Shown: positions 335 to 21,522, counted from the stretch's first letter. The stretch is DNA of 64,000 nucleotides from Candidatus Giovannonibacteria bacterium (GCA_016432405.1 CP066687.1:219040-283039); one strand, 5' to 3'. Notes: generated from the sequence alone by a model not told the origin. Program-made: numbers and translations.

Positions 335-360
335 GCTATAATTTTATTTTGTAAATTGTT

Positions 361-1083
361 ATGCAAAAAATTGATTTTTCCATAATAGTGCCGGTGTATA
401 ACGAAGAGAAGCGCATACCAAGAAGTATAAACCAGATTTTTAGTTTTTTTAATAGTTGCGGCGATGCGGTGGAGGTGATTTTTGTCAGCGACGGGTCTAC
501 CGACGACACGGAAAAGGTTCTGGAAAGTTATCAGGCGAAGCAGGGTTTTAAAATCATAAAATACGGCAAGAACCGCGGGAAGGGTTATGCTGTCCGACAA
601 GGCGTTTTGGCGGCCAGCGGGCGCTGGATAATTTTCTTTGACATTGACTTGGCAGTTCCCCTAAGCGAGTTCTCGCATTTTAAATCTTTCGTTGCGGACG
701 GCGATCAGGTAATTATCGGCAGCCGCCGGCTGATGGATTCGCGAATAAACAAGCGCGAGCATTGGCTGCGTGAATTTCTCGGCGCCGGATTCAGCGCGCT
801 GTCCCGCGTTTTTGTTCGCGAGGTCGCCGATTTTACATGCGGCTTTAAATGTTTTTCCAAACAGGCCGCTGAACAAATTTTCCCCATTGCGCGGATAAAC
901 AGATGGGCGTTTGACACGGAGCTTCTGTATATCGCCAAATTAAAACGCATGCCAATCCGCCAGATGCCGGTAGAATGGTCGCATGATGATGATTCCAGAG
1001 TAAGGGTTTGGAAAGATGCGCTGGTTTCCTTAAAAGAACTCGCGCAAATAAAAATTAACCAGTTAAAGGGACTCTACGCATGA
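361..1083 (+). CDS. GT2 family glycosyltransferase, polyprenol-phosphate hexose synthase-like (DPM1/GtrB/CsbB-like)
   Basis: N-terminus IIVPVYNEE, DGSTDDT, FFDIDL (a DxD motif); 240 aa; typical lipid-phosphate sugar synthase architecture. Confidence 0.75.
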   Translation: MQKIDFSIIVPVYNEEKRIPRSINQIFSFFNSCGDAVEVIFVSDGSTDDTEKVLESYQAKQGFKIIKYGKNRGKGYAVRQGVLAASGRWIIFFDIDLAVPLSEFSHFKSFVADGDQVIIGSRRLMDSRINKREHWLREFLGAGFSALSRVFVREVADFTCGFKCFSKQAAEQIFPIARINRWAFDTELLYIAKLKRMPIRQMPVEWSHDDDSRVRVWKDALVSLKELAQIKINQLKGLYA

Positions 1084-1745
1084 AAGCGATAATTTTAGCC
1101 GCGGGCAGAGGGAAAAGGATGAGACATTTAACGGACGATTTGCCGAAACCGCTTTTAAAGCTTGCCGGAAAAACGTTTTTAGACTACATATTTGATTCTT
1201 TCACGGAAGAAATAAACGAGGCCATCTTGGTAATCGGCTATATGGGCGAGAAAATAAAAGAATATTTGGGAGAAAATTATAAAGGGCGGAAAATTTATTA
1301 TGTTGTGCAGAGAGAGCTCTCCGGCACGGGCAATGCGGTGCTTCTTACAAAGCATTTATTCAAGGAAAAAGAGCGTTTTTTGATATTTTACGCGGACGAA
1401 CTGGTTTCAAAAGACGACGTGGAAAAATGTTTGGAAAATGAATTCGGATGGCTGTGCTGGGAAGTAGAAAACCCGAGAGCGTCCGGCATCGTTACGATCT
1501 CTCCGGGAGGATTTATCACGGAGATAATAGAAAAACCCCAAAACCCGAAGTCAAACTTGGGCGGCGGAGGGTTAATGCTTGTGAACGCCGATTTGTTTGG
1601 ATGCGCTCCCGACAAGCACGAGACCGGAGAATATTATTTAACGTCCATGATGAATAAATTTGTAAAAGATCATAAGGTAAAAGCAGTCGTGTCAAAAAAC
1701 CGGCCGTCTTTCACCTCCCCGGAAGACATTAATAGAGTTATATAG
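1080..1745 (+). CDS. Sugar-1-phosphate nucleotidyltransferase (HddC/RmlA-like short form)
   Basis: MKAIILAAGRGKRMRHLT...PKPLLK is the G-rich NTP_transferase signature; 221 aa; ATGA overlap with the upstream gene. Confidence 0.7.
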   Translation: MKAIILAAGRGKRMRHLTDDLPKPLLKLAGKTFLDYIFDSFTEEINEAILVIGYMGEKIKEYLGENYKGRKIYYVVQRELSGTGNAVLLTKHLFKEKERFLIFYADELVSKDDVEKCLENEFGWLCWEVENPRASGIVTISPGGFITEIIEKPQNPKSNLGGGGLMLVNADLFGCAPDKHETGEYYLTSMMNKFVKDHKVKAVVSKNRPSFTSPEDINRVI

Positions 1746-1748
1746 CTT

Positions 1749-2432
1749 ATGAAAATGATTTCGGTAGTAGTCCCGGTTTATAACGAAGAGCATACAATAA
1801 GCGAGCTTCACGAACGTCTTGTGAAAACGCTGGCGGCCTGTTGTGATTCTTACGAGATTGTTTTTGTCAATGACGGCTCAACCGATAACACGGAAAAAAC
1901 AGCGCTGACTTTGAAGCCGCTTGAATTGATTTCTTTTGCAAAAAATCAAGGGCAGACCCCGGCGCTGAATGCCGGAATACGCAAAGCGAAAGGCGACATC
2001 ATTGTGTTTTTGGACGCTGATTTGCAGAACAACCCCGAGGACATCCCGAAACTTTTGGAAAAAATTTCGCAGGGTTGCGGCGCGGTGGTGGGTCGGCGCG
2101 AGCATCGGCAGGACCCTGCCGCTCGCACCATATTTTCCAAAGTGGCAAATTTTATCGCCCGTTTGCTTTTGGGCGTAAAAGTCCATGATTTCGGCTGCGG
2201 GCTTAAAGCATATCGCGCGGAATTTATCAAAAACTTTGAGCTTTGGGGGCAGGTGCAGGTTTTTTTGCCGGCAATTGCCAAGGCGCGCGGGGCGAAGGTC
2301 TGTGAAGTCGGCGTTGCGCATAACGACAGAAAAGCCGGGGTCTCCAAAATAAAAATTTCCAATATGGTAAAAGGCGGCCTGGGCCTTTTAAAAATCGCTT
2401 TTATTGCTAGATTTTTAAATCCTTACAGGTAA
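1749..2432 (+). CDS. GT2 family glycosyltransferase (second polyprenol-phosphate sugar synthase-like)
   Basis: VVVPVYNEE, NDGSTDNT, LDADLQN motifs; 227 aa. Confidence 0.7.
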   Translation: MKMISVVVPVYNEEHTISELHERLVKTLAACCDSYEIVFVNDGSTDNTEKTALTLKPLELISFAKNQGQTPALNAGIRKAKGDIIVFLDADLQNNPEDIPKLLEKISQGCGAVVGRREHRQDPAARTIFSKVANFIARLLLGVKVHDFGCGLKAYRAEFIKNFELWGQVQVFLPAIAKARGAKVCEVGVAHNDRKAGVSKIKISNMVKGGLGLLKIAFIARFLNPYR

Positions 2433-2439
2433 TCCGCTT

Positions 2440-4383: not shown

Positions 4384-4411
4384 CGGAAATTTTATAGTTG
4401 TATATATTAAT

Positions 4412-5398
4412 ATGCAATCGTCAATAATATTGAGCAGAGTGCCGTTTCGGCTGCCATTGGGCGGAGGGTCTACGGATATGCCCTCGTATTATAAAAAATA
4501 CGGGGGGTTTATATTTACCGCCGCAATCAATATGTATATGGACGTCTTGATTAAAGCGACCCGTTCGGACGATCTTATCCACGTGCATTACAAATCTTTT
4601 GAAGCCGTGCCTTCGGTTGGAGAAATCCGCCATGAGCTGGCCAGAGAGGCGCTGAAGATGACCGGCCACGAAAAAGGCATAGCCATTTCTTTTAAGGCGG
4701 ATACGCCCGCCGGCACCGGCCTTGGCTCCTCCGGCGCGTGCTCCGTGGCTTTGCTTAAAGGGCTGTCGGCTTACAACGGAAACGAGATGCCGAGCGAAGA
4801 AGCCGCCGAAAAATCATTTGAGATAACCCAGTCCCTTGGGCTTCACGACGGCAAACAGGACCCATACGCCTGCGCCCTTGGCGGCTTTTCCGTTTTGGAT
4901 ATTGATACCGACGGCAAAGTAAATGTTACAAAACCGGTTTTCGCCAAGGAGACAGTAGATAAATTTTTAAATAATACCCTGCTTTTTTACACCGGCGTCA
5001 GCCGGGAGAGCGACCCGATATTGGCCGCGCAGGATAAAGAAAAAGTTCTGGAGTTGAAACACAAAACCAAAGCGATTGGCCTCGAGGTTTATAAAGCGTT
5101 TCAGAACGGAGATTTAGACCGCTTTGGCTCTTTGATGGACGAGCATTGGCGGGTCAAAAAATCAATGTCTTCGCAAATGGCCAACCGGCGGTTTGACGAA
5201 ATTTACGAAGCGGCGAAAAACGCCGGCGCTTTGGGCGGCAAAATTCTGGGAGCCGGCGGCGGCGGATACTTTTTATTTTACTGCCCGTCGCAAAAATCCA
5301 AAGAGTCCGTGCGCGCCGCGCTAAGCGGCTACGGGCTGCGGGAGATGGATTTTAGCATTGACTATAAAGGCGCTCGCGTCCGGAGAGTTAATTTTTAA
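4412..5398 (+). CDS. hddA: GHMP family sugar kinase, D-glycero-alpha-D-manno-heptose-7-phosphate kinase-like
   Basis: PAGTGLGSSGACSVALL is the GHMP motif II; 328 aa; the genomic context contains gmhA, gmhB and a transaldolase. Confidence 0.6.
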   Translation: MQSSIILSRVPFRLPLGGGSTDMPSYYKKYGGFIFTAAINMYMDVLIKATRSDDLIHVHYKSFEAVPSVGEIRHELAREALKMTGHEKGIAISFKADTPAGTGLGSSGACSVALLKGLSAYNGNEMPSEEAAEKSFEITQSLGLHDGKQDPYACALGGFSVLDIDTDGKVNVTKPVFAKETVDKFLNNTLLFYTGVSRESDPILAAQDKEKVLELKHKTKAIGLEVYKAFQNGDLDRFGSLMDEHWRVKKSMSSQMANRRFDEIYEAAKNAGALGGKILGAGGGGYFLFYCPSQKSKESVRAALSGYGLREMDFSIDYKGARVRRVNF

Positions 5399-5399
5399 A

Positions 5400-7139
5400 A
5401 TGTCCGGATTTTTAAAAGAGCACAGGTTTATACTGATTTCCGCGATTTTTTTGGCGCTTGCGGTTATCTCGCCTACACTGCTGTTCCCGCTCCTCGCCGG
5501 CGATTCGTATAAGGGCATCAATCTTGGCGAATGGGACGACGACGCGGCATATATTGCCAAAGGCAGGGAAATTCTTGAAAGCCATTCTTTGGGCAATATT
5601 TTTCTTAAAATCGGCAAAAACGATTCGTCTGACCCTCACCAGGTTTACATAGAATATCTTCTTCTCGCGCCGGTTAGAATGCTGGGGCTTTCCAGCGTAG
5701 CGAAAAGTCATATCGTGGCGCTTTACGGCTTTTATGCTTTTTTGGGCGTTGCTTTGTTGATTTTATTCATTTATTTTTTTGTTCTTAACTTATCCGGCAA
5801 TAAATTGCTTTCAGCCGCAGCCGCATTGTTCGCAGTCGGCGGCCACGAGTTAGTAAAGCTGTACCACCTTCCGGTTACCGCCGTCGCCTACAATTTCAAC
5901 ATATTTTCCCGGCCGATTATGCCCGTTTACGGGCTTCTTGCGCTTTTTATTTACATAAATTTACTGGCAAAAAGTTTGCGTGAATCGGGATGGAGGTGCG
6001 TTTTTTGGGCAGGAATTTCTTTCGGCGCGTTGTTTTACGTTTACCCCTACACATGGACTTTCGCCCTGGCGCTGACAGGGAGCTTGTTTCTGATTTATCT
6101 TTTTTTGAGGGATTGGGGGCAGGCCAAAAAAGTTTTTTACATTTCGGCGATCGGTTTTGCTGTTGGATCTTACGCGCTCGTTTTATTTTTATCGTTTATT
6201 TCTTCGGAAATTGGCAAACAAATCGCCGGCTTTACAACGTTTATTTCCCACGCCCCCGCGCCTTTCAGCAAGCTCTCTTTTTTGATTTTGATTATGGCAA
6301 TTATTTACGCCTATAAAAATCGCGATAAAAAAGACTACCCGATTCTTTTGGCGATTATTCTAGCCAGCTGGATAACCCTAAATCAGCAGGTAATTACCGG
6401 GCGCGATCCGCAAGGAGTTGATCATTACTTTTGGTACTTTACCATTCCTACTTCCATTGTGGCGGGGTCTTATGTTTCGTGGGCGCTTGTGTGGGGCTGG
6501 GAGCGCGGGAAATTAATATTGCAAAAATACGGAAGCGCTTTGCTTGGCATTGTAATCATCGTTGCTTTTTTAAATACCGCGGGACAGCAATACGCAAGGA
6601 CGATTGTGATGATGGGCACCAAAGAATACGCCCAGAGTTACCGTCCGATTATTGACACGCTGAATCGCGATCCGAAACCGGGAGTTATTTTAAGTTCAGA
6701 GCTTTTCTACGGAGAGTTTTTCCCAGTATACACCGACCACGATTTATTTTGGGCCATGCACGCATTCAATTTCGCTACCCCGATAGAAAGAATGAAAGAC
6801 GCGCTTTATTTGTACGCGTATTTAGATAAAGAGGCCAGAGGCGATTTTGCCGGCGCGCTTTATAAGATAGACGCCGGCGGAGTTAAAAAAGCGTATGGGC
6901 GCCATTACTCATCAATCTATACTGCTTTAAGCAGAGAGAAAACCATAGATTTGCTTTCCGGCGAATACAAAAAAATAGTTGATAATCCCGAAGGAATCAT
7001 TAACATTTTAAAGAAAGCCGAAGTCAATTATATCGTCTGGGACAAGAATACAAACCCGGAGTGGGACCTTTCCCCGCTTGCTAATAATCTTCAAGAAATT
7101 GCCGCGTCAAACAATATTTATTTATATGCGTTGAAATAA
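5400..7139 (+). CDS. Large polytopic membrane protein, putative GT-C-type glycosyltransferase (paralogue 1 of 3)
   Basis: About 11 predicted TM helices, an acidic first-loop motif GEWDDDAAY, and a C-terminal soluble domain of about 200 aa. It is paralogous to 7144..8967 and 19786..21522. I moved the start to the ATG at 5400, just after the upstream stop. Confidence 0.5.
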   Translation: MSGFLKEHRFILISAIFLALAVISPTLLFPLLAGDSYKGINLGEWDDDAAYIAKGREILESHSLGNIFLKIGKNDSSDPHQVYIEYLLLAPVRMLGLSSVAKSHIVALYGFYAFLGVALLILFIYFFVLNLSGNKLLSAAAALFAVGGHELVKLYHLPVTAVAYNFNIFSRPIMPVYGLLALFIYINLLAKSLRESGWRCVFWAGISFGALFYVYPYTWTFALALTGSLFLIYLFLRDWGQAKKVFYISAIGFAVGSYALVLFLSFISSEIGKQIAGFTTFISHAPAPFSKLSFLILIMAIIYAYKNRDKKDYPILLAIILASWITLNQQVITGRDPQGVDHYFWYFTIPTSIVAGSYVSWALVWGWERGKLILQKYGSALLGIVIIVAFLNTAGQQYARTIVMMGTKEYAQSYRPIIDTLNRDPKPGVILSSELFYGEFFPVYTDHDLFWAMHAFNFATPIERMKDALYLYAYLDKEARGDFAGALYKIDAGGVKKAYGRHYSSIYTALSREKTIDLLSGEYKKIVDNPEGIINILKKAEVNYIVWDKNTNPEWDLSPLANNLQEIAASNNIYLYALK

Positions 7140-7143
7140 ATAC

Positions 7144-8967
7144 ATGTCTAATTTTTTTACCGAACATAAATTTATATTGATTTCCGCAGTCGGTTTGGCG
7201 CTTTTGGTGATATCGCCGGCCCTGCTTTTCCCGTTTATGGCCGGCGATGCGTATAAGGGCATAAATGTTGGTGAGTGGTCGGACGACTTCCATTATATCG
7301 CCAAAGGCAGAGAGATTCTGGAAGGCCATTCTTTGGGCAATATTGTTCTTAAAATCGGCAAAAACGATTCGTCCGACCCGCACCAGGTTTATATAGAATA
7401 TCTTCTTCTCGCGCCGGTTAGAATGCTGGGGCTTTCCCGCGCGGCGGCAGATTATATTGTTCCTATATACACTCTTTACGCTTTTTTGGGAGTTTTCCTT
7501 TTAATCCTCTCCATTTATTTTTTCATCCTGCGCCTCTCCGCGCATAAATTATTGTCCGCGGCGATAGCGCTATTTACAATAGGCGGCTACAGTTTGGTGA
7601 AGCTTTACCATGTGCCGATTACTGCAACCAATCCGGACCCCAACATATTCAGCCGGCCGATTATGCCCGTTTACGGGCTTCTGGCGCTTTTTATTTACAT
7701 CAATTTGCTTGCGAGAAGTTTAAAATCATCGGAGAAAAAACATATTCTTTGGTCCGGCATTGCCTTCGGAGCGCTGTTTTACGTTTACCCCTACACATGG
7801 ACTTTTGCCCTGGCGCTGACAGGGAGCTTGTTTCTGATTTATATTTTTTTGAGGGATTGGGAATCAGCGAAAAAAGTTTTTTGGGTTTTTACAATCGGGC
7901 TTGCCGTTGGCGCTTACACTCTTTTTAAAACGTTTTCATTTCAGTATTCGGAAATCGGCAAACAAATTTTATATTACGGGATTACTTTAAACCATAGTCC
8001 GGCGCCTTTCAGCAAGATTTTATTTTTGGCGTTAATTTTGGCAGTTATCTTTGCGTGCCGAAATAAATGGAGCAGGAACGCCCCCTTGCTTTTGTCTATT
8101 GTTCTCGCAAATTGGATAGCTTTGAACCAGCAGGTAATTACCGGGCGAGTCCCGCAAATAATGCACTATTTTTGGTATTTTACGATACCGACTTCTATCG
8201 TCGTTGGGGCTTACCTTGGATGGGCGCTTGTGTGGGGCTGGGAGCGCGGGAAATTAATATTGCAAAAATACGGAACCATTTTTTTGGCGGCGCTAATTAT
8301 CACCGCTTATTTTAATGCGGCTTCGCGGCAGTATCAGGTGACGCTGATTACGCGGGAGGCCAAAGAATACAGGCAGAACTACCGCCCTATTATTGACGCG
8401 TTGAAGTCGGATGCCGAACCGGGAGTTATCCTCGCGTCATCCCTGCCTTACGCAATGTTATTTCCGGTGTACACGCATCATGATTTATTTTGGGGGCATG
8501 CTACTGCTTTGGTTTACAATACGCCGATGGAAAGAATTAAAGATGCGCTGTACGTGTATATGTATTTGGATAAGAGCGCCAGAGACAATTTTTTGGGCCG
8601 GCTTCGCGATGTAGATGCCGGATACGGAGTTGGAGGCGAATGGGGAACCAGTTTTTACCCGCTTATTTATTTTTTTGTGGCCGGTTTTAATTCCGGTTTT
8701 GATTACGAGGAATATGGTTTTCGTTTGGCCAAGGGCGACCCGGCGACGGTTAAAAGCAGAGACGAAACGTCGGCCTTACTTTTCCGCGGATATCAAAAAG
8801 TAGCCAGTCCGGAAGGCATTGCAGGCATTCTGAAAAAAGGCGAGGTCAATTACGTCGTTTGGGATAAAAACAAAAATCCGGAGTGGAATTTGTCGCCCCT
8901 TTCCGGAAATTTAAGAGAGGTTGCCGCGTCTAACAATATTTATTTGTACAAATTTGGCGGTGACTGA
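7144..8967 (+). CDS. Large polytopic membrane protein, putative GT-C-type glycosyltransferase (paralogue 2, tandem to paralogue 1)
   Basis: Same architecture as paralogue 1. It shares several 55-80 nt stretches of nucleotide identity with it, for example 6479-6533 matches 8221-8275. Confidence 0.5.
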   Translation: MSNFFTEHKFILISAVGLALLVISPALLFPFMAGDAYKGINVGEWSDDFHYIAKGREILEGHSLGNIVLKIGKNDSSDPHQVYIEYLLLAPVRMLGLSRAAADYIVPIYTLYAFLGVFLLILSIYFFILRLSAHKLLSAAIALFTIGGYSLVKLYHVPITATNPDPNIFSRPIMPVYGLLALFIYINLLARSLKSSEKKHILWSGIAFGALFYVYPYTWTFALALTGSLFLIYIFLRDWESAKKVFWVFTIGLAVGAYTLFKTFSFQYSEIGKQILYYGITLNHSPAPFSKILFLALILAVIFACRNKWSRNAPLLLSIVLANWIALNQQVITGRVPQIMHYFWYFTIPTSIVVGAYLGWALVWGWERGKLILQKYGTIFLAALIITAYFNAASRQYQVTLITREAKEYRQNYRPIIDALKSDAEPGVILASSLPYAMLFPVYTHHDLFWGHATALVYNTPMERIKDALYVYMYLDKSARDNFLGRLRDVDAGYGVGGEWGTSFYPLIYFFVAGFNSGFDYEEYGFRLAKGDPATVKSRDETSALLFRGYQKVASPEGIAGILKKGEVNYVVWDKNKNPEWNLSPLSGNLREVAASNNIYLYKFGGD

Positions 8968-8997
8968 TAAGCGCGGCGGAGGTTGTATAATAAAGCC

Positions 8998-9618
8998 ATG
9001 CAGCAGAGCGACCATATAGAAACGTATTTAAACGAAGTTGTAGAGATTACAAAACGCATAGACCGTGGCTCTATACGCAAAATCGTCGGGATCTTGCGGG
9101 ATTTAAGAAATAAAAAAGGGCGCCTGTTTATTATCGGCGTCGGCGGTTCGGCGGCAAACGCCTCGCATGCTGTTAATGATTTCCGAAAAATTGCCCATAT
9201 TCAATCTTACGCTCCAACGGATAACGTCGCCGAGCTTACCGCTAGAGTAAACGATGACGGCTGGGATTCTGTTTTCGCGCGCTGGCTAGAGCATAATCAC
9301 ATAACGCCCAATGACGCAGTTTTGGTTTTGTCAGTTGGCGGAGGCAACGCTGAAAAAAACATAAGCGCAAATATTGTACATGCGCTGAATCACGCCAAAG
9401 AGCGCGGCGCAAAAATATTGGGCATTGTGAGCCGCGACGGCGGGTATACAGCTAAAGTCGCCGATGCCTGTGTTTTGGTGCCGGTTGTGAATCCGGACAA
9501 CGTGACGGCGCACGCGGAAGCATGGCAGGCGGTGCTGTGGCACGCGATTGTTTTTCATCCTGAATTAAAAATGACTGAAGGAAAATGGGAAAGCATAGAA
9601 AAACCGATGTTGTCTTAG
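8998..9618 (+). CDS. gmhA: SIS-domain sedoheptulose-7-phosphate isomerase
   Basis: LFIIGVGGSAANASHAVNDF...LVLSVGGGN...GAKILGIV is the phosphoheptose isomerase signature. GGAGG lies upstream. The ORF track starts at a TTG at 8983; I prefer the ATG at 8998. Confidence 0.75.
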   Translation: MQQSDHIETYLNEVVEITKRIDRGSIRKIVGILRDLRNKKGRLFIIGVGGSAANASHAVNDFRKIAHIQSYAPTDNVAELTARVNDDGWDSVFARWLEHNHITPNDAVLVLSVGGGNAEKNISANIVHALNHAKERGAKILGIVSRDGGYTAKVADACVLVPVVNPDNVTAHAEAWQAVLWHAIVFHPELKMTEGKWESIEKPMLS

Positions 9619-9633
9619 AGACAACAATTTTTC

Positions 9634-9662
9634 TTGACTAATATTAAAGGATTTGCTAGCAT
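9634..9662 (+). promoter_or_regulatory. Candidate sigma70-like promoter upstream of the P-loop kinase / gmhB / tal genes
   Basis: TTGACT, a 17-nt spacer, then TGcTAGCAT (extended -10-like) in a 76-bp intergenic gap. Confidence 0.3.
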
Positions 9663-9694
9663 AGCGGCTAGAAAATAAAACCCGGAGGTGACTC

Positions 9695-10330: not shown

Positions 10331-10394
10331 TTTTTGAGAGCCTCGGCTCGCCGCGTTACTGGCGGGCCTTTTATTTTGTTATTATTTTAGACAT

Positions 10395-10940
10395 ATGGCG
10401 CATGTCGGCAACAAAGCTGTTTTTTTTGACAGGGATGGCGTGATTCTCAAAGCGGTAGTAGATGCCGGCGTGCCGCGGCCGCCGTACAGCGTTGCTGAAT
10501 ATAAAGAGAAAAGCGGAATTATGCCTGGGGCAAAAGAAGCGGTTGAAGCGGTGCGCAGAAACGGCTTTCTTGCTATTTTGGCAACGAACCAGCCGGATAT
10601 TCGGTATGGGAGGATCACAAAGGAAGACTGGCAGTGGATACAGAACCAGATTGTGGATATTCCGTTTGACGATATTTTTATATGCTTTCACGGACGAGAT
10701 GACGGGTGCGAGTGCAAAAAACCGAAGCCGGGAATGCTGATTGCGGCCGCAAAAAAATGGGGGATTGATTTAAAAAAAACTTTTATGGTCGGGGATTCTG
10801 AAAGCGACGTGAAAGCCGGCCAAGCCGCAGGATGCAAAATAATTTTAATAGACCATGAACAAAATAAAAATTTGGAGCCCGATTTCAGGGTGACAAATTT
10901 ATCGGAAGTGGTAAAATTGATAAATGAAAATATTTATTGA
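10395..10940 (+). CDS. gmhB: D-glycero-D-manno-heptose-1,7-bisphosphate phosphatase (HAD superfamily)
   Basis: FFDRDGVI is the HAD motif I. CFHGRDDGCECKKPKPGM is the GmhB zinc-loop CxCxKP motif. MVGDSESD is motif III. Confidence 0.8.
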   Translation: MAHVGNKAVFFDRDGVILKAVVDAGVPRPPYSVAEYKEKSGIMPGAKEAVEAVRRNGFLAILATNQPDIRYGRITKEDWQWIQNQIVDIPFDDIFICFHGRDDGCECKKPKPGMLIAAAKKWGIDLKKTFMVGDSESDVKAGQAAGCKIILIDHEQNKNLEPDFRVTNLSEVVKLINENIY

Positions 10941-11658
10941 TAGCGCGAATTTAAACGATATTGAGGAGGCCTTAAAACGCGGATTCGCGGAGGGGATTAC
11001 GACAAATCCGTCTCTTCTGGCAAAAGAGCCGAAATCCTCTTTTGAGGCGCACATCGGAAAAATTGTGGAGCTGATTAAAAAACATCAGCCGGGTATTCAT
11101 TTGAGCGTGGAAGTTTTTTCGCGCGACCAAAAAATTATTTTGGAGCAGGCACAGAAATTTATGAAGCAGTTTGCTTATCCGCAAATGAGCATTAAGGTGC
11201 AAGTTGGGTGGGATGAACTTGAAACCATTAAAAAATTGAGCGCGGCTGGCATTTCGGTAAACTGCACTGCCTGTATGAATGTGACGCAAGCCGTGATGGC
11301 CGCGCGTGCTGGCGCAAAATACGTCAGTTTGTTTTGGGGCAGAATCCGCGACGGCGGGACAGATGCGGCAATGTCTAAAGAGCGAGATGAAGCCGTAAAT
11401 AAAAGAGCTTTAGACAGCGACGATTTCAATCCTTTTAAGGTTGTTCAGGCGACGCGGCAGATTTTTGACCAGGACAAAATTCCATCAGAAATTATCGCGG
11501 GCAGCATGCGCAGTGCCGTTGACGTCAGAAACGCGCGTTTAGCCGGCGCTCATATTGTGACCGTGCCCCCCAAATTTTTTCCAGATATGATTTCCCACTT
11601 CAAAACCGACCAAGTCGTCAACCAATTTTTGACTGATTTTGAAAAATGGATGAGCTAA
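10924..11658 (+). CDS. tal: Transaldolase / fructose-6-phosphate aldolase family (short type)
   Basis: FIDSANLNDIE...GITTNPSL signature; 244 aa; the product sedoheptulose-7-phosphate is the GmhA substrate. Confidence 0.7.
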   Translation: MKIFIDSANLNDIEEALKRGFAEGITTNPSLLAKEPKSSFEAHIGKIVELIKKHQPGIHLSVEVFSRDQKIILEQAQKFMKQFAYPQMSIKVQVGWDELETIKKLSAAGISVNCTACMNVTQAVMAARAGAKYVSLFWGRIRDGGTDAAMSKERDEAVNKRALDSDDFNPFKVVQATRQIFDQDKIPSEIIAGSMRSAVDVRNARLAGAHIVTVPPKFFPDMISHFKTDQVVNQFLTDFEKWMS

Positions 11659-12521
11659 AAAAAACTATAAAAAATTTAATAATCTCAATGCGGCCAAGGC
11701 AGTGGATAAAAAACCTCTTTCTTTTTGCCGCCATAATTTTCGTAAAGCAGTTTTCGGATATTGAGAAGCTGGCGGCTGTTTTTGAGGCCTTTATCATTTT
11801 CTGCTTCGCCTCAAGCGCGATTTATCTGCTAAATGACGCAGTGGACGCGCCGTATGACCGCAGACACCCGCAAAAACGCCTAAGGCCGATCGCCGCTGGA
11901 GAGCTCCCAGTATTCGGAGCTGTTTTCGCAGCCGCGGTTTTCGGAGCGCTCTCCGTTTTTTGGAGTTTTTACATAAATAATTTTTTCGCGCTTGCCGTTA
12001 TCGGATTTTTGGCGCTTAATGTTTTATATTCGTTTTATCTCAAGCGTTTCGTGATAATTGACGTGATAACAATCGCTTTGGGTTTTGTCATCCGCGTCAT
12101 CGCCGGCGCAGTCGCCATAGACGTCCGGTTTTCGGAATGGCTGATTCTTTCAACTTTTTTCCTGACGCTTTTTTTGGCTATTTCCAAGAGGAAAAACGAG
12201 CTTATGCATGCAGAGGAAACCGAAGCGCGCGAGGGGCTTGGCAGATATTCTCTCGCTCTCTTGGACCAGATGAATGCGATTGTTTTGCCTTCCACCATTA
12301 TCACCTACGCTTTTTATACGTTCAGCTCCGAGCACAGCAAGCTTCTCATGATTACAATACCCATCGTGCTTTACGGGCTTTTTCGGTATTTATTTTTGAT
12401 AAACATAAAAACGCGGAGCGACGATGGTCCCACGGACGATTTGCTTTTAGACAAACATTTGCTCGCCACTGTTTTTATCTGGCTCGCGGTTTCCGTAGCA
12501 ATGATTCTTTATGCCGGATAG
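11646..12521 (+). CDS. UbiA-family prenyltransferase, polyprenyl-phosphate phosphoribosyltransferase (DPPR synthase, Rv3806c)-like
   Basis: LLNDAVDAPYDRRHPQKRLRPIAAGEL carries the NDxxDxxxD motif; about 8 TM helices; 291 aa. Confidence 0.6.
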   Translation: MDELKKTIKNLIISMRPRQWIKNLFLFAAIIFVKQFSDIEKLAAVFEAFIIFCFASSAIYLLNDAVDAPYDRRHPQKRLRPIAAGELPVFGAVFAAAVFGALSVFWSFYINNFFALAVIGFLALNVLYSFYLKRFVIIDVITIALGFVIRVIAGAVAIDVRFSEWLILSTFFLTLFLAISKRKNELMHAEETEAREGLGRYSLALLDQMNAIVLPSTIITYAFYTFSSEHSKLLMITIPIVLYGLFRYLFLINIKTRSDDGPTDDLLLDKHLLATVFIWLAVSVAMILYAG

Positions 12522-12540
12522 ATTTTTTGAGGAGCTGGAT

Positions 12541-12918
12541 ATGCCGCGGCAGGGGGCTGTGATTTTTTTGGACATTGACGGCACTTTGCGGCCGGACGGA
12601 GATCAAGGAATGAGTCAGGAGGTTTTAAATAAGCTGGCGGAGCTTAAGGCCAAAAACGAAGTTCATTTAATCAGCAATAAAGGCAACGGCGCAAAAAAGC
12701 CGAGCCGAGAAGCGGCAGAGGGCGTTGATATGGCCGGGAAAAAAGTTGTGGTGATAGGCGATAAATTTTTGACGGACGGGCTGTTCGCGAAAAATATCGG
12801 AGCCGAATTCGTTAAAGTCAGAAGAAAAATTTCAGGCCGGGAGAATTTTTTTGTTAAAGTCGCGTATTTTATTGACGATTTTATTTCTGCTATATTATGG
12901 AAACAAAAAAATATTTAA
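12541..12918 (+). CDS. HAD superfamily phosphatase (small, IIIA-like)
   Basis: [11 protein letters not shown] is the HAD motif I; GDKFLTDG is motif III. GAGGAG lies 7 nt upstream of the ATG at 12541. Confidence 0.55.
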
Positions 12919-13940: not shown

Positions 13941-13943
13941 GTT

Positions 13944-14537
13944 ATGCGGTTTGACCTTTTGCGGGCCGCAATTGTGGGGGAAGCCATCGCGCTTTTGACT
14001 TTGCCGACGTTAAAAAATATAAATTTTTTTGAGCCGACATTTGTCGCCGTCTGGCTGGTCTTCGTGCCCGCGGCGGCGCTCGCCGGTTTTTATTTGATTT
14101 ATTTGACGTCGGCGAGGCGGCCCGTCTTGCTGGAGTTGGGAAAATACGGCCTCGTCGGATGCTTCAATTTTTTTCTGGACGCGGGCATTTTCAACTTTTT
14201 TATTTTAATTACTGGCATTGCCAGGGGTTGGCCGGTGGACGTTTTTATAATAATTGCTTTTGCGATAACGATAACGCAAAGTTTTTTGTGGAATAAATTC
14301 TGGATTTTTAAGGCGAACGATTTGGCCAATGCGCGCGCGCAGTACGCAAAATTTTTCAGCATGACTGTTGTCACTTCCCTTTTAGGGCTTTTGTTTATGC
14401 ATCTTATGATAAATACCATCGGTGCTCCCTCCGGTTTTGATTTGAAAGTTTGGGCGAATCTCGCGCTTTTAGTTTTGATACCGACGTCTGCCCTGGGCAA
14501 TTTCCTTGGCTATAAGTTTTTTGTTTTTAAAAAATGA
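13944..14537 (+). CDS. GtrA-family protein (lipid-linked sugar translocase / flippase family)
   Basis: LGKYGLVGCFNFFLDAGIFNFF...SFLWNKFWIFK is the GtrA signature; 4-5 TM helices. Confidence 0.65.
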   Translation: MRFDLLRAAIVGEAIALLTLPTLKNINFFEPTFVAVWLVFVPAAALAGFYLIYLTSARRPVLLELGKYGLVGCFNFFLDAGIFNFFILITGIARGWPVDVFIIIAFAITITQSFLWNKFWIFKANDLANARAQYAKFFSMTVVTSLLGLLFMHLMINTIGAPSGFDLKVWANLALLVLIPTSALGNFLGYKFFVFKK

Positions 14538-18722: not shown

Positions 18723-19793
18723 ATGATTAAATTCGTAGATTTTACAAGAGAATACATATCTATAAAGAGCGAAATAGACGCCGCTATCAAGAAAGTCTTG
18801 CGGCGCGGAGTTTTCATTTTGGGTCCGGAGGTGGAAAATTTTGAAAAAAAATTCGCGAAATATTGCGGCGTCCGATACGCCGTGGGAGTCGCGTCCGGCA
18901 CGGACGCGCTCTATTTGAGCTTGCTGGCTTTGGGTATTGGGCGAGGAGATGAGGTGATTGTGCCGGTAAATACCGCTTTGGCGACTGCTATGGCCGTTAA
19001 GATGAGCGGAGCCAAGCCGGTTTTTTGCGACTCTGATGAAAATTTTTTGATAGACATAGACAAAATCCCGGCGCTTATAAATAAAAAAACAAAAGCGCTT
19101 ATCCCAGTGCATCTTTACGGCAGGGCGTGCAATATGGATAAATTAAGAGTCGTCGCAAAAAAACACAAACTATTTTTAATAGAAGATTGCGCGCAGGCGG
19201 CTGGGGCAAAATGGCGCGGCAAAAAAGCCGGCGGCTGGGGGGATTTTAGCTGCTTTAGTTTTTATCCGACAAAGAATTTGGGCGCTTACGGGGATGGGGG
19301 AGCCGTAACAACAAATAGCGAAGACCATTATAAAAAATTACGGGCATTGCGCTTTTACGGGGCGCACGACCGGATAACCAGCGCGATGTTCGGCATAAAC
19401 AGCCGTTTGGACGAAAAGCAGGCCGCGATTTTGAGCGTTAAGTTGAAATATCTGGATAACTGGAACAAAAAAAGAGCGTCCCTGGCCGATCTTTATAGAA
19501 AACTGATTACTAATAAAAATATTACTTTGCCTGCGGCAAATTCTGGCGAACACGTCTATCATTTATTCGTCGCGCGCGCGAAAAACCGCGACGCTCTGAT
19601 GAACGTGCTGAAAAAGAAAAGCGTTCAAACTATGATTCACTATCCGCTTCTTCTTCATGAGCAGCCGGTTTTTAATTACAAAGGCAAATTTGCCAACGCC
19701 GAAAAATATTCCAAAGAAATTTTTTCTTTGCCTATTCATCCGTTTTTGAAAAAAGAAGAAGTAGCGCGGATAGCCAAAATTTTAAATGCGTGA
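18723..19793 (+). CDS. DegT/DnrJ/EryC1/StrS family sugar aminotransferase (FdtB/QdtB-like)
   Basis: ILGPEVENFEKKFAKYCG...AVGVASGTDAL; FSFYPTKNLGA contains the PLP-lysine region. I chose the ATG at 18723, directly after the upstream stop. Confidence 0.75.
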   Translation: MIKFVDFTREYISIKSEIDAAIKKVLRRGVFILGPEVENFEKKFAKYCGVRYAVGVASGTDALYLSLLALGIGRGDEVIVPVNTALATAMAVKMSGAKPVFCDSDENFLIDIDKIPALINKKTKALIPVHLYGRACNMDKLRVVAKKHKLFLIEDCAQAAGAKWRGKKAGGWGDFSCFSFYPTKNLGAYGDGGAVTTNSEDHYKKLRALRFYGAHDRITSAMFGINSRLDEKQAAILSVKLKYLDNWNKKRASLADLYRKLITNKNITLPAANSGEHVYHLFVARAKNRDALMNVLKKKSVQTMIHYPLLLHEQPVFNYKGKFANAEKYSKEIFSLPIHPFLKKEEVARIAKILNA

Positions 19794-21522
19794 ACACGGC
19801 TTGATTATTATTTTGGGGCTCCTTCTGACTCTTTTGATTGAGGCGCCGCTTTTGGTGTTTCCTTTTGTTTCAAAAAATTATCAGGGCATCAACATTCCGC
19901 ATTTCGGCACCGATTCGCATTTTTATTTAAGCCGCGCCAAAGAAGCTTTGGAAGGGCGCGGCATGGGCAATCCGTGGCTGCGCGAAGGCAAGGAGCGGCA
20001 AGACATTATGTTTATGTATAACGAGCGCGCGCTTACTGCGCCGATAAGATTTCTGGGGCTTGCTGATAGAATCAATGTTGTAACTCTGTATAACATCTAT
20101 AATTTTATCGGGATTTTTATTTTGATTTTACTTGCTTATTTTTTTGTTTGGCAACTTTCGGGAAGCAAACTTTTATCCGCCGTCGCGGCGGTGTTTGCGA
20201 TCGGCGGCTACCATATTGTCTACAGGCAATTTCTTTACAATGATTTCAACATCTACGGCCGGCCGATGTTTCCTTACATGAGTTCTTTGGCTTTTTTTGC
20301 GTATTTAAATCTTTTAGTGTTATGGCTTAGGACGAAAAAATTTATTTACGGGCTTTTCTCCGCCGTCGCGCTTGGTTCGCTTTTTTACATATACTTTTTT
20401 GCCTGGACTTTCGCTTTGGCTTTAAACGGAGCGCTGTTTTTGCTGTATTTTCTAAAGCGCGAATGGGCGCCCGCAAAATCGCTGACTCTTATTTCCGCGG
20501 CCGGCGTACTTATCGGGTTTTATAATCTTTTTCAGATGTGGGCGCTCTTTCAATCCGACATCGGCGCGCAGATTGCGTATTTCCATTGGTCAAGCCGCAC
20601 GCATCTGCCGATTTTCAGTAAAATCGGCGCCGCCATGCTTTTGCTCCTCGCGTTTTTTTGGTACCGGAAACGAAATAATGAAAGGATTATTTTAATTTCG
20701 GCTTTGATTTTGGCCGGCTGGATTTCTTTAAACCAACAAATAATCACCGGCAAGGCGGTTGAGATCGGGCATTACTACTGGTATTTCATTGTCCCGCTTT
20801 CCATTCTCGCCGGCTTGTACATGTTATGGGAACTGCTGGATAATTTCGCGTGGCGGAAGCAGTTGTTTGCGTCTATGCTGGTTGTCGTATTTTTGCACGG
20901 CGCACTGGGGCAGTATCGTTCTTTTTTCATTACCTTGCCGGGGAAGGAATATGAGCAATCATACCGGCCGATAATTGCGGAATTAAAAAAAGACGCTGCC
21001 CCCGGAGTTGTATTGGCCGCGGACGACTATTTGGCTTATCTGATTGCAATTTATACCGACCGTGATTTATTTTGGGCGGGAGCGGCTTCGCAGACGATAA
21101 TGCCTTTTTCGCGTTTTTCCGACATGCTTTATGTTTACGCATATTTAAATAAAGAGGCGCGAGGGGATTTTGCCGGCTACTTGCGCAGCTTGATGAGCGA
21201 TGCAACCGACGACTCTTTTTATAAAGGCCTTTACGGATTTATAGAGGGGTTTTCCTCCGGCATGGATTATTATGATTATGTTTATAAAGCGAAAACAGAC
21301 AAAAATGTTATAGGTCCGCACAGGGAGCGGCTGATTGCCGATCTCGCTCGCGAATATTCTCAATTGACGGGCGGCGGCGGGATGGCCGGCTTGTTGAAAA
21401 AATACGGCGTCAAATACATTGTTTGGGACAAAAACAGACATCCCGAATGGGACTTGTCTTTTCTGAAATTTAAACTGCTTCTTGAGCATAACAATATAGA
21501 CCTTTACGAGGTTATATATTGA
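19786..21522 (+). CDS. Large polytopic membrane protein, putative GT-C-type glycosyltransferase (paralogue 3)
   Basis: Same architecture as 5400..7139 and 7144..8967. Shared motifs include INQQIITGK, YYWYF and a C-terminal YIVWDKN..PEWDLS. Confidence 0.5.
   Translation: MREHGLIIILGLLLTLLIEAPLLVFPFVSKNYQGINIPHFGTDSHFYLSRAKEALEGRGMGNPWLREGKERQDIMFMYNERALTAPIRFLGLADRINVVTLYNIYNFIGIFILILLAYFFVWQLSGSKLLSAVAAVFAIGGYHIVYRQFLYNDFNIYGRPMFPYMSSLAFFAYLNLLVLWLRTKKFIYGLFSAVALGSLFYIYFFAWTFALALNGALFLLYFLKREWAPAKSLTLISAAGVLIGFYNLFQMWALFQSDIGAQIAYFHWSSRTHLPIFSKIGAAMLLLLAFFWYRKRNNERIILISALILAGWISLNQQIITGKAVEIGHYYWYFIVPLSILAGLYMLWELLDNFAWRKQLFASMLVVVFLHGALGQYRSFFITLPGKEYEQSYRPIIAELKKDAAPGVVLAADDYLAYLIAIYTDRDLFWAGAASQTIMPFSRFSDMLYVYAYLNKEARGDFAGYLRSLMSDATDDSFYKGLYGFIEGFSSGMDYYDYVYKAKTDKNVIGPHRERLIADLAREYSQLTGGGGMAGLLKKYGVKYIVWDKNRHPEWDLSFLKFKLLLEHNNIDLYEVIY

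What the first reader, a model, noticed from the sequence alone, without database searches (positions are those of the whole stretch)
5400..8967. Tandem paralogous GT-C-like membrane proteins with mosaic tracts of near-identical nucleotide sequence (gene conversion)
Two adjacent genes of about 590 aa, with a third copy at 19786..21522, share architecture: roughly 11 TM helices, an acidic first-loop motif (EWDDDAAY, EWSDDFHY or HFGTDSHFY), and a conserved C-terminal soluble domain (YIVWDKN.NPEW.LS). Overall the proteins are diverged, but I can read at least four 55-80 nt stretches that are identical or differ at 1-2 positions. Examples are 6479-6533 versus 8221-8275, 6037-6118 versus 7783-7864, and 5641-5703 versus 7384-7446. 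That pattern points to recent gene conversion between diversifying paralogues, as in phase-variable or serotype-converting glycosyltransferases. The family does not match a well-known GT-C family at motif level, so it may be a novel GT-C clade paired with the two GT2 polyprenol-P-sugar synthases (361 and 1749) and the GtrA flippase, by analogy with GtrABC or CsbB/GtcA/YfhO three-component systems.
Basis: seen in the sequence. Interest (0 to 1): 0.65.

Follow-up and report, generated by a model that had tools for sequence, protein, structure and literature searches.

The report
Gene-converting tandem GT-C glycosyltransferase paralogues
Two neighbouring genes in an uncultured groundwater bacterium (Candidatus Giovannonibacteria) encode membrane sugar-transferring enzymes of a large, unannotated family, and they repeatedly copy short stretches of DNA into one another; the copying is an ordinary process, but the enzyme family is uncharacterised.

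Summary
Genes A (5400-7139) and B (7144-8967) are 70% identical in DNA. They share tracts of 55 nt (exact), 87 nt (2 mismatches) and 63, 55 and 54 nt (2 mismatches each). Comparison with the same tandem pair in two other Giovannonibacteria lineages shows interlocus gene conversion. In the tracts the paralogues are closer than the orthologues, including at synonymous sites, and the converted tracts differ between lineages (permutation p<2e-4). Both genes are under purifying selection (dN/dS 0.12-0.15). There are no slippage-prone repeats, so phase variation is unsupported.

The AlphaFold2 model (pLDDT 84) matches only GT-C glycosyltransferases (STT3/PglB/AglB, AftA, DPY19, ArnT). No Pfam, NCBIfam or PDB sequence model detects the family. 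An exhaustive HMM search finds 1,815 cluster representatives, and a separate genome scan places the family almost entirely in CPR/Patescibacteria MAGs. Some members are fused to GT2 or GtrA domains. The adjacent GT2 resembles ArnC, DPMS and GtrB.

My reading is that these are extracytoplasmic transferases of GtrABC-like three-component systems: a new sequence family of a known kind, evolving by a known process. Donor sugar and acceptor are inferred, not shown.

The parts
5400..7139 (+). Gene A (579 aa): GT-C-fold membrane protein. Mostly the recipient of the conversion tracts. Its C-terminal domain is about 29 aa shorter than in every other family member.
   Evidence: (100% match to HYW15_01505)
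7144..8967 (+). Gene B (607 aa): tandem paralogue of A, starting 4 nt after the A stop codon. The main donor in the conversion tracts.
19786..21522 (+). Gene C (578 aa): third family member, 41% aa identity to A. Not involved in conversion. Follows an SDR+GT2 / FdtA / methyltransferase / DegT cassette.
5552..5700 (+). Conversion tract 1 in A (partner in B: 7296-7444). 92% identity. A1 matches B1/B2 rather than A2 at 20 of 23 informative sites. Encodes the distal part of the first external loop and the following helix.
   Evidence: (p<2e-4)
7296..7444 (+). Conversion tract 1, B copy (the donor side).
5905..5960 (+). High-identity tract 2 in A (partner in B: 7649-7704). 91% identity with a 30-nt exact run. 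Encodes the invariant R171/P175 segment. It is also similar in lineage 2, so it is either older or constrained.
7649..7704 (+). High-identity tract 2, B copy.
6025..6120 (+). Conversion tract 3 in A (partner in B: 7769-7864). 87 nt with 2 mismatches. pS is 0.18 for A1-B1 and 0.55 for A1-A2. The adjacent 6067-6161 segment is independently converted in lineage 2 (A2=B2 at 20 of 20 sites).
7769..7864 (+). Conversion tract 3, B copy.
6470..6540 (+). Conversion tract 4 in A (partner in B: 8211-8281). Contains the 55-nt exact run. Shows 'concerted' site patterns (A1=B1, A2=B2, with the two lineages differing). Encodes a clade-specific cytoplasmic loop insertion that is not conserved across the family.
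8211..8281 (+). Conversion tract 4, B copy.
361..1083 (+). GT2 (240 aa). Best PDB sequence matches are GtrB, ArnC and DPMS (about 1e-12). Its counterpart sits directly upstream of A2 in lineage 2.
1749..2432 (+). GT2 (227 aa), polyprenyl-phosphate sugar-synthase type: ArnC 2e-33, DPMS 3e-23, GtrB 5e-19. The match covers the catalytic part only, and at 227 aa there is no room for the C-terminal TM helices of ArnC/GtrB.
13944..14537 (+). GtrA/DPMS_TM family small membrane protein: candidate flippase for the lipid-linked sugar.
1080..1745 (+). Sugar-1-phosphate nucleotidyltransferase. Best match is the N-terminal part of archaeal GlmU; HddC is a weaker match. All below equivalog cutoffs.
4412..5398 (+). 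GHMP kinase. Best match is HddA, heptose 7-phosphate kinase (8e-40, below the cutoff).
8983..9618 (+). SIS-domain protein. Best match is GmhA, sedoheptulose 7-P isomerase (below the cutoff).
10395..10940 (+). HAD-IIIA phosphatase. Best named match is GmhB, heptose 1,7-bisphosphate phosphatase (below the cutoff).
11646..12521 (+). UbiA-family decaprenyl/polyprenyl-phosphate phosphoribosyltransferase. Passes the NCBIfam equivalog cutoff. First gene of a UbiA-HAD-SDR-GtrA block that could supply a polyprenyl-P-pentofuranose donor.
   Evidence: PMC11127046
12511..13940 (+). Small HAD-type phosphatase (12511-12918) and SDR epimerase-like protein (12897-13940) of the UbiA block.

Best explanation
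A, B and C are integral-membrane glycosyltransferases with the GT-C fold. They have 11 TM helices, a helical first external loop carrying an invariant Asp, and a C-terminal extracytoplasmic domain of about 160-190 aa. They belong to a large, unannotated family that is mostly found in CPR/Patescibacteria.

Inferred mechanism. A cytoplasmic ArnC/DPMS/GtrB-like GT2 loads a sugar onto polyprenyl phosphate. For A and B the sugar may be a heptose derivative, judging by the flanking GmhA/HddA/GmhB-like genes. A GtrA-type protein flips the lipid-linked sugar across the membrane. The GT-C then transfers it on the outer face to a cell-surface acceptor, which could be a glycopolymer or a protein.

Evolution. 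A and B arose by tandem duplication within Giovannonibacteria. Since then they have exchanged short tracts of about 50-150 nt by interlocus gene conversion, independently in different lineages and mostly from B into A. This keeps parts of the N-terminal catalytic core nearly identical while the rest of the membrane domain and the C-terminal domain stay diverged.

Shown: the paralogy, the mosaic, the conversion, the purifying selection, the GT-C fold, and the GT2/GtrA fusions and adjacency. Inferred: enzymatic activity, donor, acceptor and topology.
For: Conversion.
- Four-taxon windows show paralogue identity above orthologue identity at 5613-5700 and 6033-6063 in the window lineage, and at 6063-6150 in lineage 2.
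- Polymorphic-site permutation: A1-B1 share a run of 12 concordant sites and A2-B2 a run of 20, both p<1e-4.
- Triplet tests give p<2e-4. The third lineage's Y3 is roughly a 50:50 A/B mosaic.
- Concerted site patterns outnumber the control pattern 17 to 6.
- pS is 0.13-0.22 in the tracts and 0.68 outside them.
- The lineage-2 sequence is identical across four independent assemblies.

Both genes functional. dN/dS is 0.153 for A and 0.122 for B.

Fold. pLDDT 84, pTM 0.87. The only significant Foldseek hits are GT-C enzymes: STT3, PglB, AglB, AftA, DPY19 and ArnT.

Active-site-like conservation. D47, Y51, R171, Y213/Y215 and N328-Q-Q-x-x-T-G all fall in loops predicted to be extracytoplasmic.

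Three-component link.
- The GT2 at 1749-2432 matches ArnC, DPMS and GtrB.
- A GtrA gene is in the locus.
- Fusion proteins exist: GT2-family (five proteins) and GtrA-family (one protein).
- A related GT2 lies within 6 kb in 35 of 61 loci and is adjacent in 13.
- Family members sit at the end of sugar-nucleotide cassettes in other genomes.

Precedent. GT136, YfhO and GtrC three-component systems (PMC11127046, PMC8035078).
Against: - There are no biochemical data, and every member comes from an uncultured MAG.
- The GT-C relationship is visible only at the fold level (TM-score about 0.5, 9-14% identity). No sequence profile links the family to a characterised GT-C.
- I could not superpose the models to confirm that D47 occupies the catalytic position.
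- The window GT2s lack the TM helices of GtrB and ArnC.
- The heptose-pathway enzymes score below NCBIfam equivalog cutoffs, and in lineages 2 and 3 the pair is not flanked by them.
- I computed no background rate for GT2 adjacency.
- The window lineage is known from a single assembly.
- A synonymous-codon-only runs test on the A1/B1 pair alone was marginal (p about 0.06).
Confidence: 0.72

Rival explanations
1. The identity tracts reflect only strong purifying selection on conserved protein segments, perhaps with codon bias, and no DNA exchange occurred between A and B.
For: Tracts 1-3 coincide with segments conserved across the family. A synonymous-codon runs test on A1/B1 alone was only marginal (p about 0.06).
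Against: Synonymous divergence is 3-5 times lower in the tracts (pS 0.13-0.22 vs 0.68) and is lower between paralogues than between orthologues. Different tracts are homogenised in different lineages. Tract 4 encodes a loop that is not conserved in the family.
Confidence: 0.03
2. The mosaic is an artefact of metagenome assembly, with chimeric joining of the two paralogues or of co-existing strains.
For: The window lineage is represented by one assembly only (1 contig).
Against: Exact shared runs are at most 55 nt, and each patch would need two precise switches. Lineage 2 has its own tracts, and its sequence is identical in four assemblies from different samples and assemblers. Lineage 3 is also mosaic. 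Both reading frames are intact and under purifying selection.
Confidence: 0.04
3. The proteins are oligosaccharyltransferase-like enzymes, distant relatives of STT3/AglB/PglB, that glycosylate proteins such as S-layer proteins or pilins rather than decorating a glycopolymer.
For: The top full-length fold hits are OST catalytic subunits at E about 1e-7, better than ArnT at 3e-4. The four best, though non-significant, hits of the isolated C-terminal domain are AglB C-terminal globular domains (E 0.09-0.26). Invariant polar residues (T445, D448, F450, W451) lie at the start of that domain.
Against: There is no WWDYG motif (sequences) and no Pfam STT3 hit. The C-terminal matches are not significant. 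The association with polyprenyl-monophosphate sugar synthases and GtrA points to single-sugar donors. Even so, DPY19 and the PMTs are protein glycosyltransferases that use such donors, so a protein acceptor remains possible.
Confidence: 0.15
4. A and/or B use a polyprenyl-phosphate pentofuranose donor made by the downstream UbiA-HAD-SDR block, as GT136 and the Aft/Emb enzymes do, rather than a GT2-made hexose or heptose donor.
For: The UbiA gene passes the equivalog cutoff for decaprenyl-P phosphoribosyltransferase. The UbiA-HAD-SDR block follows the A/B position in every lineage examined. AftA is among the fold hits. The architecture (11 TM, helical loop after TM1, C-terminal domain) resembles GT136 (PMC11127046).
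Against: A GT2 lies immediately upstream of the pair in lineages 2 and 3. GT2-family fusions exist, and no UbiA fusion appeared among the seven extended members I scanned. A UbiA homologue lies within 6 kb in only 3 of 61 loci. A complete UbiA system in a phage fragment uses a different GT-C family, DUF6044.
Confidence: 0.2
5. The proteins are not glycosyltransferases but another class of polytopic membrane protein, such as a Wzy-type polymerase, an O-antigen ligase or a transporter.
For: No sequence family assignment exists.
Against: Every significant structural match is a GT-C glycosyltransferase. Transporters appear only at E>0.1 with TM-scores of about 0.1.
Confidence: 0.04

Closest known systems
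GtrABC / CsbB-GtcA-YfhO type three-component extracytoplasmic glycosylation systems
   Same: The locus holds a polyprenyl-phosphate sugar-synthase-type GT2, a GtrA-family small membrane protein and a polytopic GT-C-fold transferase. Fusions of the GT-C to GT2 or GtrA occur in the family.
   Different: There is no sequence similarity to YfhO or any other Pfam GT-C model. The GT2s lack TM anchors. Several GT-C paralogues, each next to a different sugar-nucleotide cassette, share one locus. The host is a CPR bacterium with an unknown envelope glycan.
GT136 pentofuranosyltransferase system (C. youngae ORF12 with PPPRS ORF15; Kelly et al. 2024, PMC11127046)
   Same: Both have 11 TM helices, a small helical domain after TM1 with a conserved Asp followed a few residues later by Tyr, and an extra C-terminal extracytoplasmic domain. 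A UbiA-type phosphoribosyltransferase plus HAD phosphatase plus epimerase-like SDR is present in the same locus.
   Different: GT136 is described as EpsG-like in CDD with a beta-rich CBM at the C-terminus. This family gives no EpsG hit, and its C-terminal domain is alpha/beta. I could not compare the sequences directly. The flippase here is GtrA-type, not MATE.
Oligosaccharyltransferase catalytic subunits STT3/AglB/PglB (GT66)
   Same: These are the best structural matches for the full-length model (E about 1e-7, TM about 0.5). The C-terminal domain weakly resembles AglB-S globular domains.
   Different: No WWDYG motif and no Pfam STT3 hit; 9-14% identity; 11 rather than 13 TM helices. The genomic context implies monophosphate-linked single sugars.
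ArnT / PMT_2 (GT83/GT39-like) enzymes
   Same: GT-C(A)-type fold match (5f15, E 3e-4). The neighbouring GT2 is most similar to ArnC, the partner of ArnT. Distant family members give sub-threshold PMT_2 hits (E 3e-3).
   Different: A, B and C and their 13 closest relatives give no PMT_2 hit even at E<=5.
Interlocus gene conversion in bacterial tandem paralogue clusters (e.g. S. aureus tandem lipoprotein genes, PMC2568036)
   Same: Short patches are exchanged between adjacent paralogues, producing mosaic divergence and lineage-specific homogenisation.
   Different: Here it affects polytopic glycosyltransferases in a CPR genome. Nothing indicates a programmed or phase-variable mechanism.

Membership tests
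GT-C fold glycosyltransferase superfamily | Polytopic membrane domain (7-13 TM) with the GT-C core arrangement | tested here: met
   AF2 model pLDDT 84, pTM 0.87. All 22 Foldseek PDB hits at E<=1e-3 are GT-C enzymes.
GT-C fold glycosyltransferase superfamily | Extracytoplasmic helical loop after TM1 carrying a conserved acidic catalytic residue | tested here: inconclusive
   D47 is invariant in 16 sequences, and the 97-sequence consensus reads D-x-E-x-x-Y, but D47 is not among the >=90% conserved columns there. Helices 48-59 and 79-94 follow TM1. Spatial equivalence to the catalytic Asp of PglB or ArnT could not be checked because no superposition tool was available.
GT-C fold glycosyltransferase superfamily | Uses a polyprenyl-phosphate-linked sugar donor | not testable with these tools
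   Context only: an ArnC/DPMS/GtrB-like GT2, a GtrA gene and fusion proteins.
Three-component (GtrABC-like) glycosylation system | Polyprenyl-P sugar-synthase GT2 encoded with the GT-C | tested here: met
   GT2 at 1749-2432 matches ArnC at 2e-33. A GT2 lies directly upstream of A2 and X3. Five GT2-family fusions. Adjacent in 13 of 61 loci and within 6 kb in 35 of 61.
Three-component (GtrABC-like) glycosylation system | GtrA-family flippase candidate encoded with the GT-C | tested here: met
   PF04138 at 13944-14537. The same gene is in L003. GtrA-family fusion P0130. It lies about 5 kb from B, not adjacent.
GT66 oligosaccharyltransferase (STT3/AglB/PglB) | WWDYG motif in the C-terminal domain; match to the STT3 sequence model | tested here: not met
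   No WWD motif in A, B or C (sequences). No Pfam STT3 hit at E<=5. No PDB sequence hit.
GT83/GT39 (ArnT / PMT_2 / PMT) | Match to Pfam PMT or PMT_2 above the gathering score | tested here: not met
   No hit for the 16 close members. Distant members P0076 and P0130 score 18 bits against a cutoff of 26.1.
YfhO family | Match to Pfam YfhO (PF09586) | tested here: not met
   No hit at E<=5 for 16 members.
GT136 | Sequence similarity to C. youngae ORF12 (reported as EpsG-like in CDD) | tested here: inconclusive
   No EpsG hit. The architecture is similar (PMC11127046).
DUF6044 (the GT-C found with the UbiA-HAD-SDR-MATE system in phage fragment MT837543.1) | Profile similarity to PF19510 | tested here: not met
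   The L008 ORF matches DUF6044 at 3e-103. hhalign against the family profile gives probability 2%. The family HMM finds nothing in L008.
Interlocus gene conversion | Tracts where paralogues in one genome are closer than orthologues between genomes, including at synonymous sites, and clustered beyond chance | tested here: met
   p<2e-4; pS 0.18 vs 0.55 at 6025-6120.
Phase-variable glycosyltransferase | Slippage-prone simple repeat or invertible element in or upstream of the gene | tested here: not met
   No SSR and only 7-nt homopolymers in 5300-9000. The promoter/terminator scan was not enriched. Inverted repeats were not searched.

The most novel reading that the evidence does not exclude
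The family is a CPR-centred lineage of OST-like GT-C enzymes, with an STT3/AglB-like core and an AglB-like C-terminal domain, that glycosylate surface proteins or polymers one sugar at a time from polyprenyl-monophosphate donors. Arrays of paralogues, each tied to its own sugar cassette, build a combinatorial surface glycan. Recurrent interlocus gene conversion keeps the donor-lipid/catalytic core interchangeable while the acceptor- and sugar-specific parts diverge. If so, this would be a major unrecognised determinant of the cell surface of episymbiotic ultra-small bacteria and of their interactions with hosts and phages.
Probability: 0.15. Interest if true: 0.7.

Novelty: new variant of a known kind. 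Interest (0 to 1): 0.45.

Why it matters
CPR/Patescibacteria are a large share of bacterial diversity, live attached to other cells and have almost no characterised envelope biochemistry. This work defines a large family (at least 1,800 clusters at 50% identity) of GT-C-fold enzymes. The family is invisible to Pfam and NCBIfam, it sits in multi-copy arrays inside hypervariable sugar loci, and it has Rosetta-stone fusions to the other two parts of three-component glycosylation systems. That gives an annotation handle and concrete targets for experiments, namely D47, R171 and the NQQxxTG loop. The gene conversion is a clear example of mosaic paralogue evolution, documented in three lineages, but it is mechanistically ordinary.

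Tried and rejected
- A synonymous-codon runs test on the A1/B1 pair alone was only marginal (p about 0.06). I replaced it with multi-lineage tests.
- Pfam, NCBIfam and PDB sequence searches with single sequences, a 16-sequence profile and a 97-sequence profile gave nothing.
- The strain variants L001, L002 and L004 add no information, because they are identical to L003 in A2/B2.
- Cluster look-ups gave no taxon names.
- The 97-sequence alignment was too diverse for the genome scan, so I used the 16-sequence one.
- I could not obtain a GT136 sequence. BK026208.1 is absent, and tblastn of A against the phage collection found nothing.
- No donor was found for the extra A1/A2 divergence at 6546-6720, apart from a 52-nt A2-B2 patch.
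- The ORFs at 57072-58667 and 59991-61736 are not family members.
- The promoter/terminator scan was uninformative.
- Literature searches found no description of GT-C enzymes in CPR/Patescibacteria.

Full report
**1. What is there.**
The window is from a Candidatus Giovannonibacteria (CPR/Parcubacteria) MAG. The protein of 5400-7139 is 100% identical to HYW15_01505, on a 651-kb contig. Almost all genes from 361 to about 24,200 lie on the + strand with tiny gaps or overlaps. Gene A (5400-7139, 579 aa) and gene B (7144-8967, 607 aa) are separated by 4 nt. Gene C (19786-21522, 578 aa) is a third paralogue, 41% identical to A over its full length. A family HMM finds exactly these three in the window.

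**2. The observation.**
In the correct register the claim holds. A and B are 70% identical over 1731 aligned nt (67% at the protein level). They contain:
- a 55-nt exact run (6480-6534 = 8221-8275)
- 87 nt with 2 mismatches (6031-6117 / 7775-7861)
- 63 nt with 2 mismatches (5631-5693 / 7375-7437)
- 55 nt with 2 mismatches (5581-5635 / 7325-7379)
- 54 nt with 2 mismatches (5909-5962 / 7653-7706)

Identity is 0.89-0.93 in four tract regions and 0.64 elsewhere. A 55-nt run exceeds all 2000 i.i.d. simulations (mean 18.7, maximum 40) and all 2000 codon-shuffle simulations (mean 22.6, maximum 52).

**3. Conversion, not just conservation.**
On the A1/B1 pair alone, a synonymous-codon runs test was only marginal (p about 0.06), so I brought in orthologues.
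- *Lineage 2.* GCA_001780675.1 carries the same tandem pair, A2/B2. Its sequence is identical in four independent assemblies.
- *Overall identities.* A1-A2 0.865, B1-B2 0.908, A-B about 0.70.
- *Window lineage.* At 5613-5700 and 6033-6063, A1 is 0.93-0.98 identical to B1 and 0.90-0.95 to B2, but only 0.73-0.82 to A2.
- *Lineage 2 tract.* At 6063-6150 the reverse holds: A2-B2 is 0.88-0.98 and A1-A2 is 0.73-0.77.
- *Site patterns.* Sites where A2 is the odd one out cluster at 5594-5700 and 6041-6068. Sites where A1 is the odd one out cluster at 6118-6161. The concerted pattern (A1=B1, A2=B2, lineages differing) occurs 17 times against 6 for the control pattern, and it clusters in tracts 3 and 4.
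- *Permutation over 672 polymorphic sites.* A1-B1 share a run of 12 concordant sites and A2-B2 a run of 20, both p<1e-4.
- *Triplet tests.* 20 of 23 sites at 5552-5682 are B-like in A1. 20 of 20 at 6067-6161 are B-like in A2. Both give p<2e-4.
- *Lineage 3.* In L007, Y3 is roughly a 50:50 mosaic of A-like and B-like segments and X3 carries B-like patches.
- *Synonymous divergence.* A1-B1 pS is 0.13-0.22 in the tracts and 0.68 outside. At 6025-6120 it is 0.18 for A1-B1 and 0.55 for A1-A2.
- *Tract 4.* It encodes a clade-specific loop that is not conserved in the family, so protein constraint cannot explain its 55-nt identity.
- *Direction.* B1 and B2 stay alike in the tracts, so B is mostly the donor and A the recipient.
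- *Selection.* Both genes are under purifying selection, with dN/dS 0.153 for A and 0.122 for B.
- *Phase variation.* There are no SSRs and only 7-nt homopolymers, so phase variation is unsupported.
- *Copy C.* It shares only short weak matches with A and B.
- *Timing.* A more distant Giovannonibacteria MAG (L005) has a single A/B-type gene in the same position, which places the duplication after that split.

**4. What the proteins are.**
No Pfam or NCBIfam model hits A, B or C, nor any of 16 relatives at E<=5. Profiles of 16 and 97 sequences find no PDB sequence.

An AlphaFold2 model of A is confident (pLDDT 84, pTM 0.87). All 22 of its Foldseek hits at E<=1e-3 in the PDB are GT-C glycosyltransferases: STT3/PglB/AglB (E about 1e-7, TM about 0.5), AftA, DPY19 and ArnT. 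EmbB, ALG3, PimE and GPI-MT-I follow more weakly. Transporters appear only at E>0.1 with TM about 0.1.

The helix pattern, the sequence and the positive-inside rule together give 11 TM helices with the N-terminus inside and the C-terminus outside. This topology is an inference. On it, the invariant polar residues all fall in external loops or in the C-terminal domain:
- D47 and Y51 in the first loop
- R171 and P175
- Y213 and Y215
- N328-Q-Q-x-x-T-G
- T445, D448, F450 and W451

The isolated C-terminal domain models well (pLDDT 88.5) but has no significant structural neighbour. Its four best hits are C-terminal globular domains of A. fulgidus AglB (E 0.09-0.26). I treat that as a weak lead only. 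A lacks about 29 aa of this domain that all other members have.

**5. Size and spread of the family.**
The word-indexed search found only 17 relatives. The exhaustive HMM search found 1,815 representatives at E<=1e-3 and 418 at E<=1e-30. In GTDB species representatives, the 61 loci found are nearly all Patescibacteria MAGs: Giovannoni-, Magasanik-, Falkow-, Kaiser-, Peregrini-, Portnoy-, Nealson- and Uhrbacteria, among others. Distant members (22-25% identity) occur in Acidobacteriota, Omnitrophota and Desulfobacterales MAGs. Two or more members lie within 6 kb in 12 of 61 loci.

**6. How it probably works.**
*GT2 partners.* The GT2 at 1749-2432 matches ArnC (2e-33), DPMS (3e-23) and GtrB (5e-19). 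The GT2 at 361-1083 matches the same set at about 1e-12. Both are too short (240 and 227 aa) to include the TM anchors of ArnC and GtrB.

*Flippase and fusions.* A GtrA-family gene lies at 13944-14537. Elsewhere, family members are fused to an N-terminal GT2 (P0019, P0038, P0047, P0099, P0121), to GtrA (P0130) or to a methyltransferase (P0057).

*Adjacency.* A GT2 lies directly upstream of the pair in lineages 2 and 3. A related GT2 is adjacent in 13 of 61 loci and within 6 kb in 35 of 61. I did not compute a background rate.

*Sugar cassettes.* Family members typically close a sugar-nucleotide cassette.
- C follows SDR+GT2, FdtA, methyltransferases and DegT.
- L006 has two members, each after a DegT gene.
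- A and B are flanked by a nucleotidyltransferase, the ArnC-like GT2, a GFO+DAO fusion, an HddA-like kinase, a GmhA-like isomerase, a GmhB-like phosphatase and a transaldolase. The named matches are best hits but fall below equivalog cutoffs. A heptose-type donor is therefore plausible, not shown.

*Pentofuranose route.* Downstream, the UbiA gene passes the equivalog cutoff for decaprenyl-phosphate phosphoribosyltransferase (238.6 bits against 234). It is followed by a small HAD phosphatase, an SDR and GtrA. This resembles the polyprenyl-P-pentofuranose donor route of mycobacteria and of the GT136 systems (PMC11127046), so a pentofuranose donor for one of the paralogues is a live alternative.

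*Model.* The best-supported model is a GtrABC-, CsbB/GtcA/YfhO- or GT136-like three-component glycosylation. The lipid-linked monosaccharide is made in the cytoplasm, flipped across the membrane, and transferred outside by the GT-C. The acceptor is unknown. The window also encodes TagF-like, LtaS/sulfatase-like, capsule-synthesis-like and ABC-exporter genes.

**7. Comparison with known families.**
- *Membership.* The family belongs to the GT-C fold class. It fails the sequence tests for GT66 (no WWDYG motif, no STT3 hit), PMT/PMT_2, YfhO and EpsG.
- *DUF6044.* A gut phage fragment carries a complete UbiA-HAD-SDR-GT-C-MATE system whose GT-C is DUF6044. That family is unrelated to this one (hhalign probability 2%).
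- *GT136.* Its architecture is similar (11 TM, helical loop, extra C-terminal domain), but I could not compare sequences.
- *Literature.* Full-text searches found no description of GT-C enzymes in CPR.
- *The process.* Interlocus gene conversion in bacterial tandem paralogues is well known (e.g. PMC2568036).

**8. Verdict.**
The process (gene conversion) and the kind of enzyme (a GT-C in a three-component system) are both known. The sequence family is uncharacterised, unannotated and large, and it is centred on CPR. Novelty: new variant of a known kind. Interest: moderate.

Noticed in passing
window 11646-14537: The UbiA gene passes the NCBIfam equivalog cutoff for decaprenyl-phosphate phosphoribosyltransferase. 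It is followed by a small HAD phosphatase, an SDR and GtrA. This looks like a polyprenyl-P-pentofuranose (DPR/DPA- or GT136-type) donor pathway in a CPR genome. The UbiA-HAD-SDR core is conserved in L003, L005 and L007; the GtrA gene follows it in L003 but is replaced by a GT2 in L005 and a methyltransferase in L007.
   Followed up: partly
window 2440-4383: A 647-aa fusion of a GFO/IDH/MocA NAD-oxidoreductase with an FAD-dependent DAO oxidoreductase sits directly after the ArnC-like GT2. It is also present in L005 (666 aa). It might modify a sugar or lipid-linked sugar by an oxidation/reduction pair, but this is untested.
   Followed up: no
window 21524-23173: A fusion of an NDP-sugar dehydrogenase with a SAM methyltransferase lies immediately after gene C. 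The same fusion follows family members in L005 and L006.
   Followed up: no
window 6546-6720 (gene A): A1 and A2 are unusually diverged here (pS 0.62 against 0.33 gene-wide) while B1-B2 are nearly identical. Apart from a 52-nt A2-B2 patch, no donor was found among the fetched loci. An unsampled allele or paralogue is possible.
   Followed up: partly
window about 6895-6900 (gene A, C-terminal domain): A and its orthologue A2 lack about 29 aa of the C-terminal extracytoplasmic domain that B, C and all other aligned members have. This suggests altered acceptor recognition in the A copy.
   Followed up: no
window 57072-58667 and 59991-61736: Two large ORFs (531 and 581 aa) lie in T-rich DNA. They have no Pfam hit and are not members of the A/B/C family.
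   Followed up: partly
L008 (MT837543.1, human-gut phage fragment) 844-6645: A complete UbiA - HAD - SDR - DUF6044 (579 aa) - MATE/Polysacc_synt cassette. This is a pentofuranose-type three-component system on a putative phage fragment, and its GT-C belongs to Pfam DUF6044.
   Followed up: partly
L007 8210-8285: The called start of Y3 (P0004) is an internal Met. TM1 is encoded in frame upstream and overlaps the end of X3, so the true start is probably a non-ATG codon, or else the gene is 5'-truncated.
   Followed up: no
window 30589-32100 and 49886-57085: Envelope-polymer genes: two Capsule_synth-like proteins, an ABC exporter, an LtaS/sulfatase-like protein and a TagF-like glycerophosphotransferase. 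These are candidate sources of the acceptor polymer.
   Followed up: no
window 1-11658 compared with L003 and L005: The locus is modular. The window combines the heptose-like cassette seen around the single A/B-type gene of L005 with the tandem pair seen in L003 and L007. In L003 and L007 the pair is instead followed by a 314-319-aa GT2 and an asparagine-synthase-like gene.
   Followed up: partly
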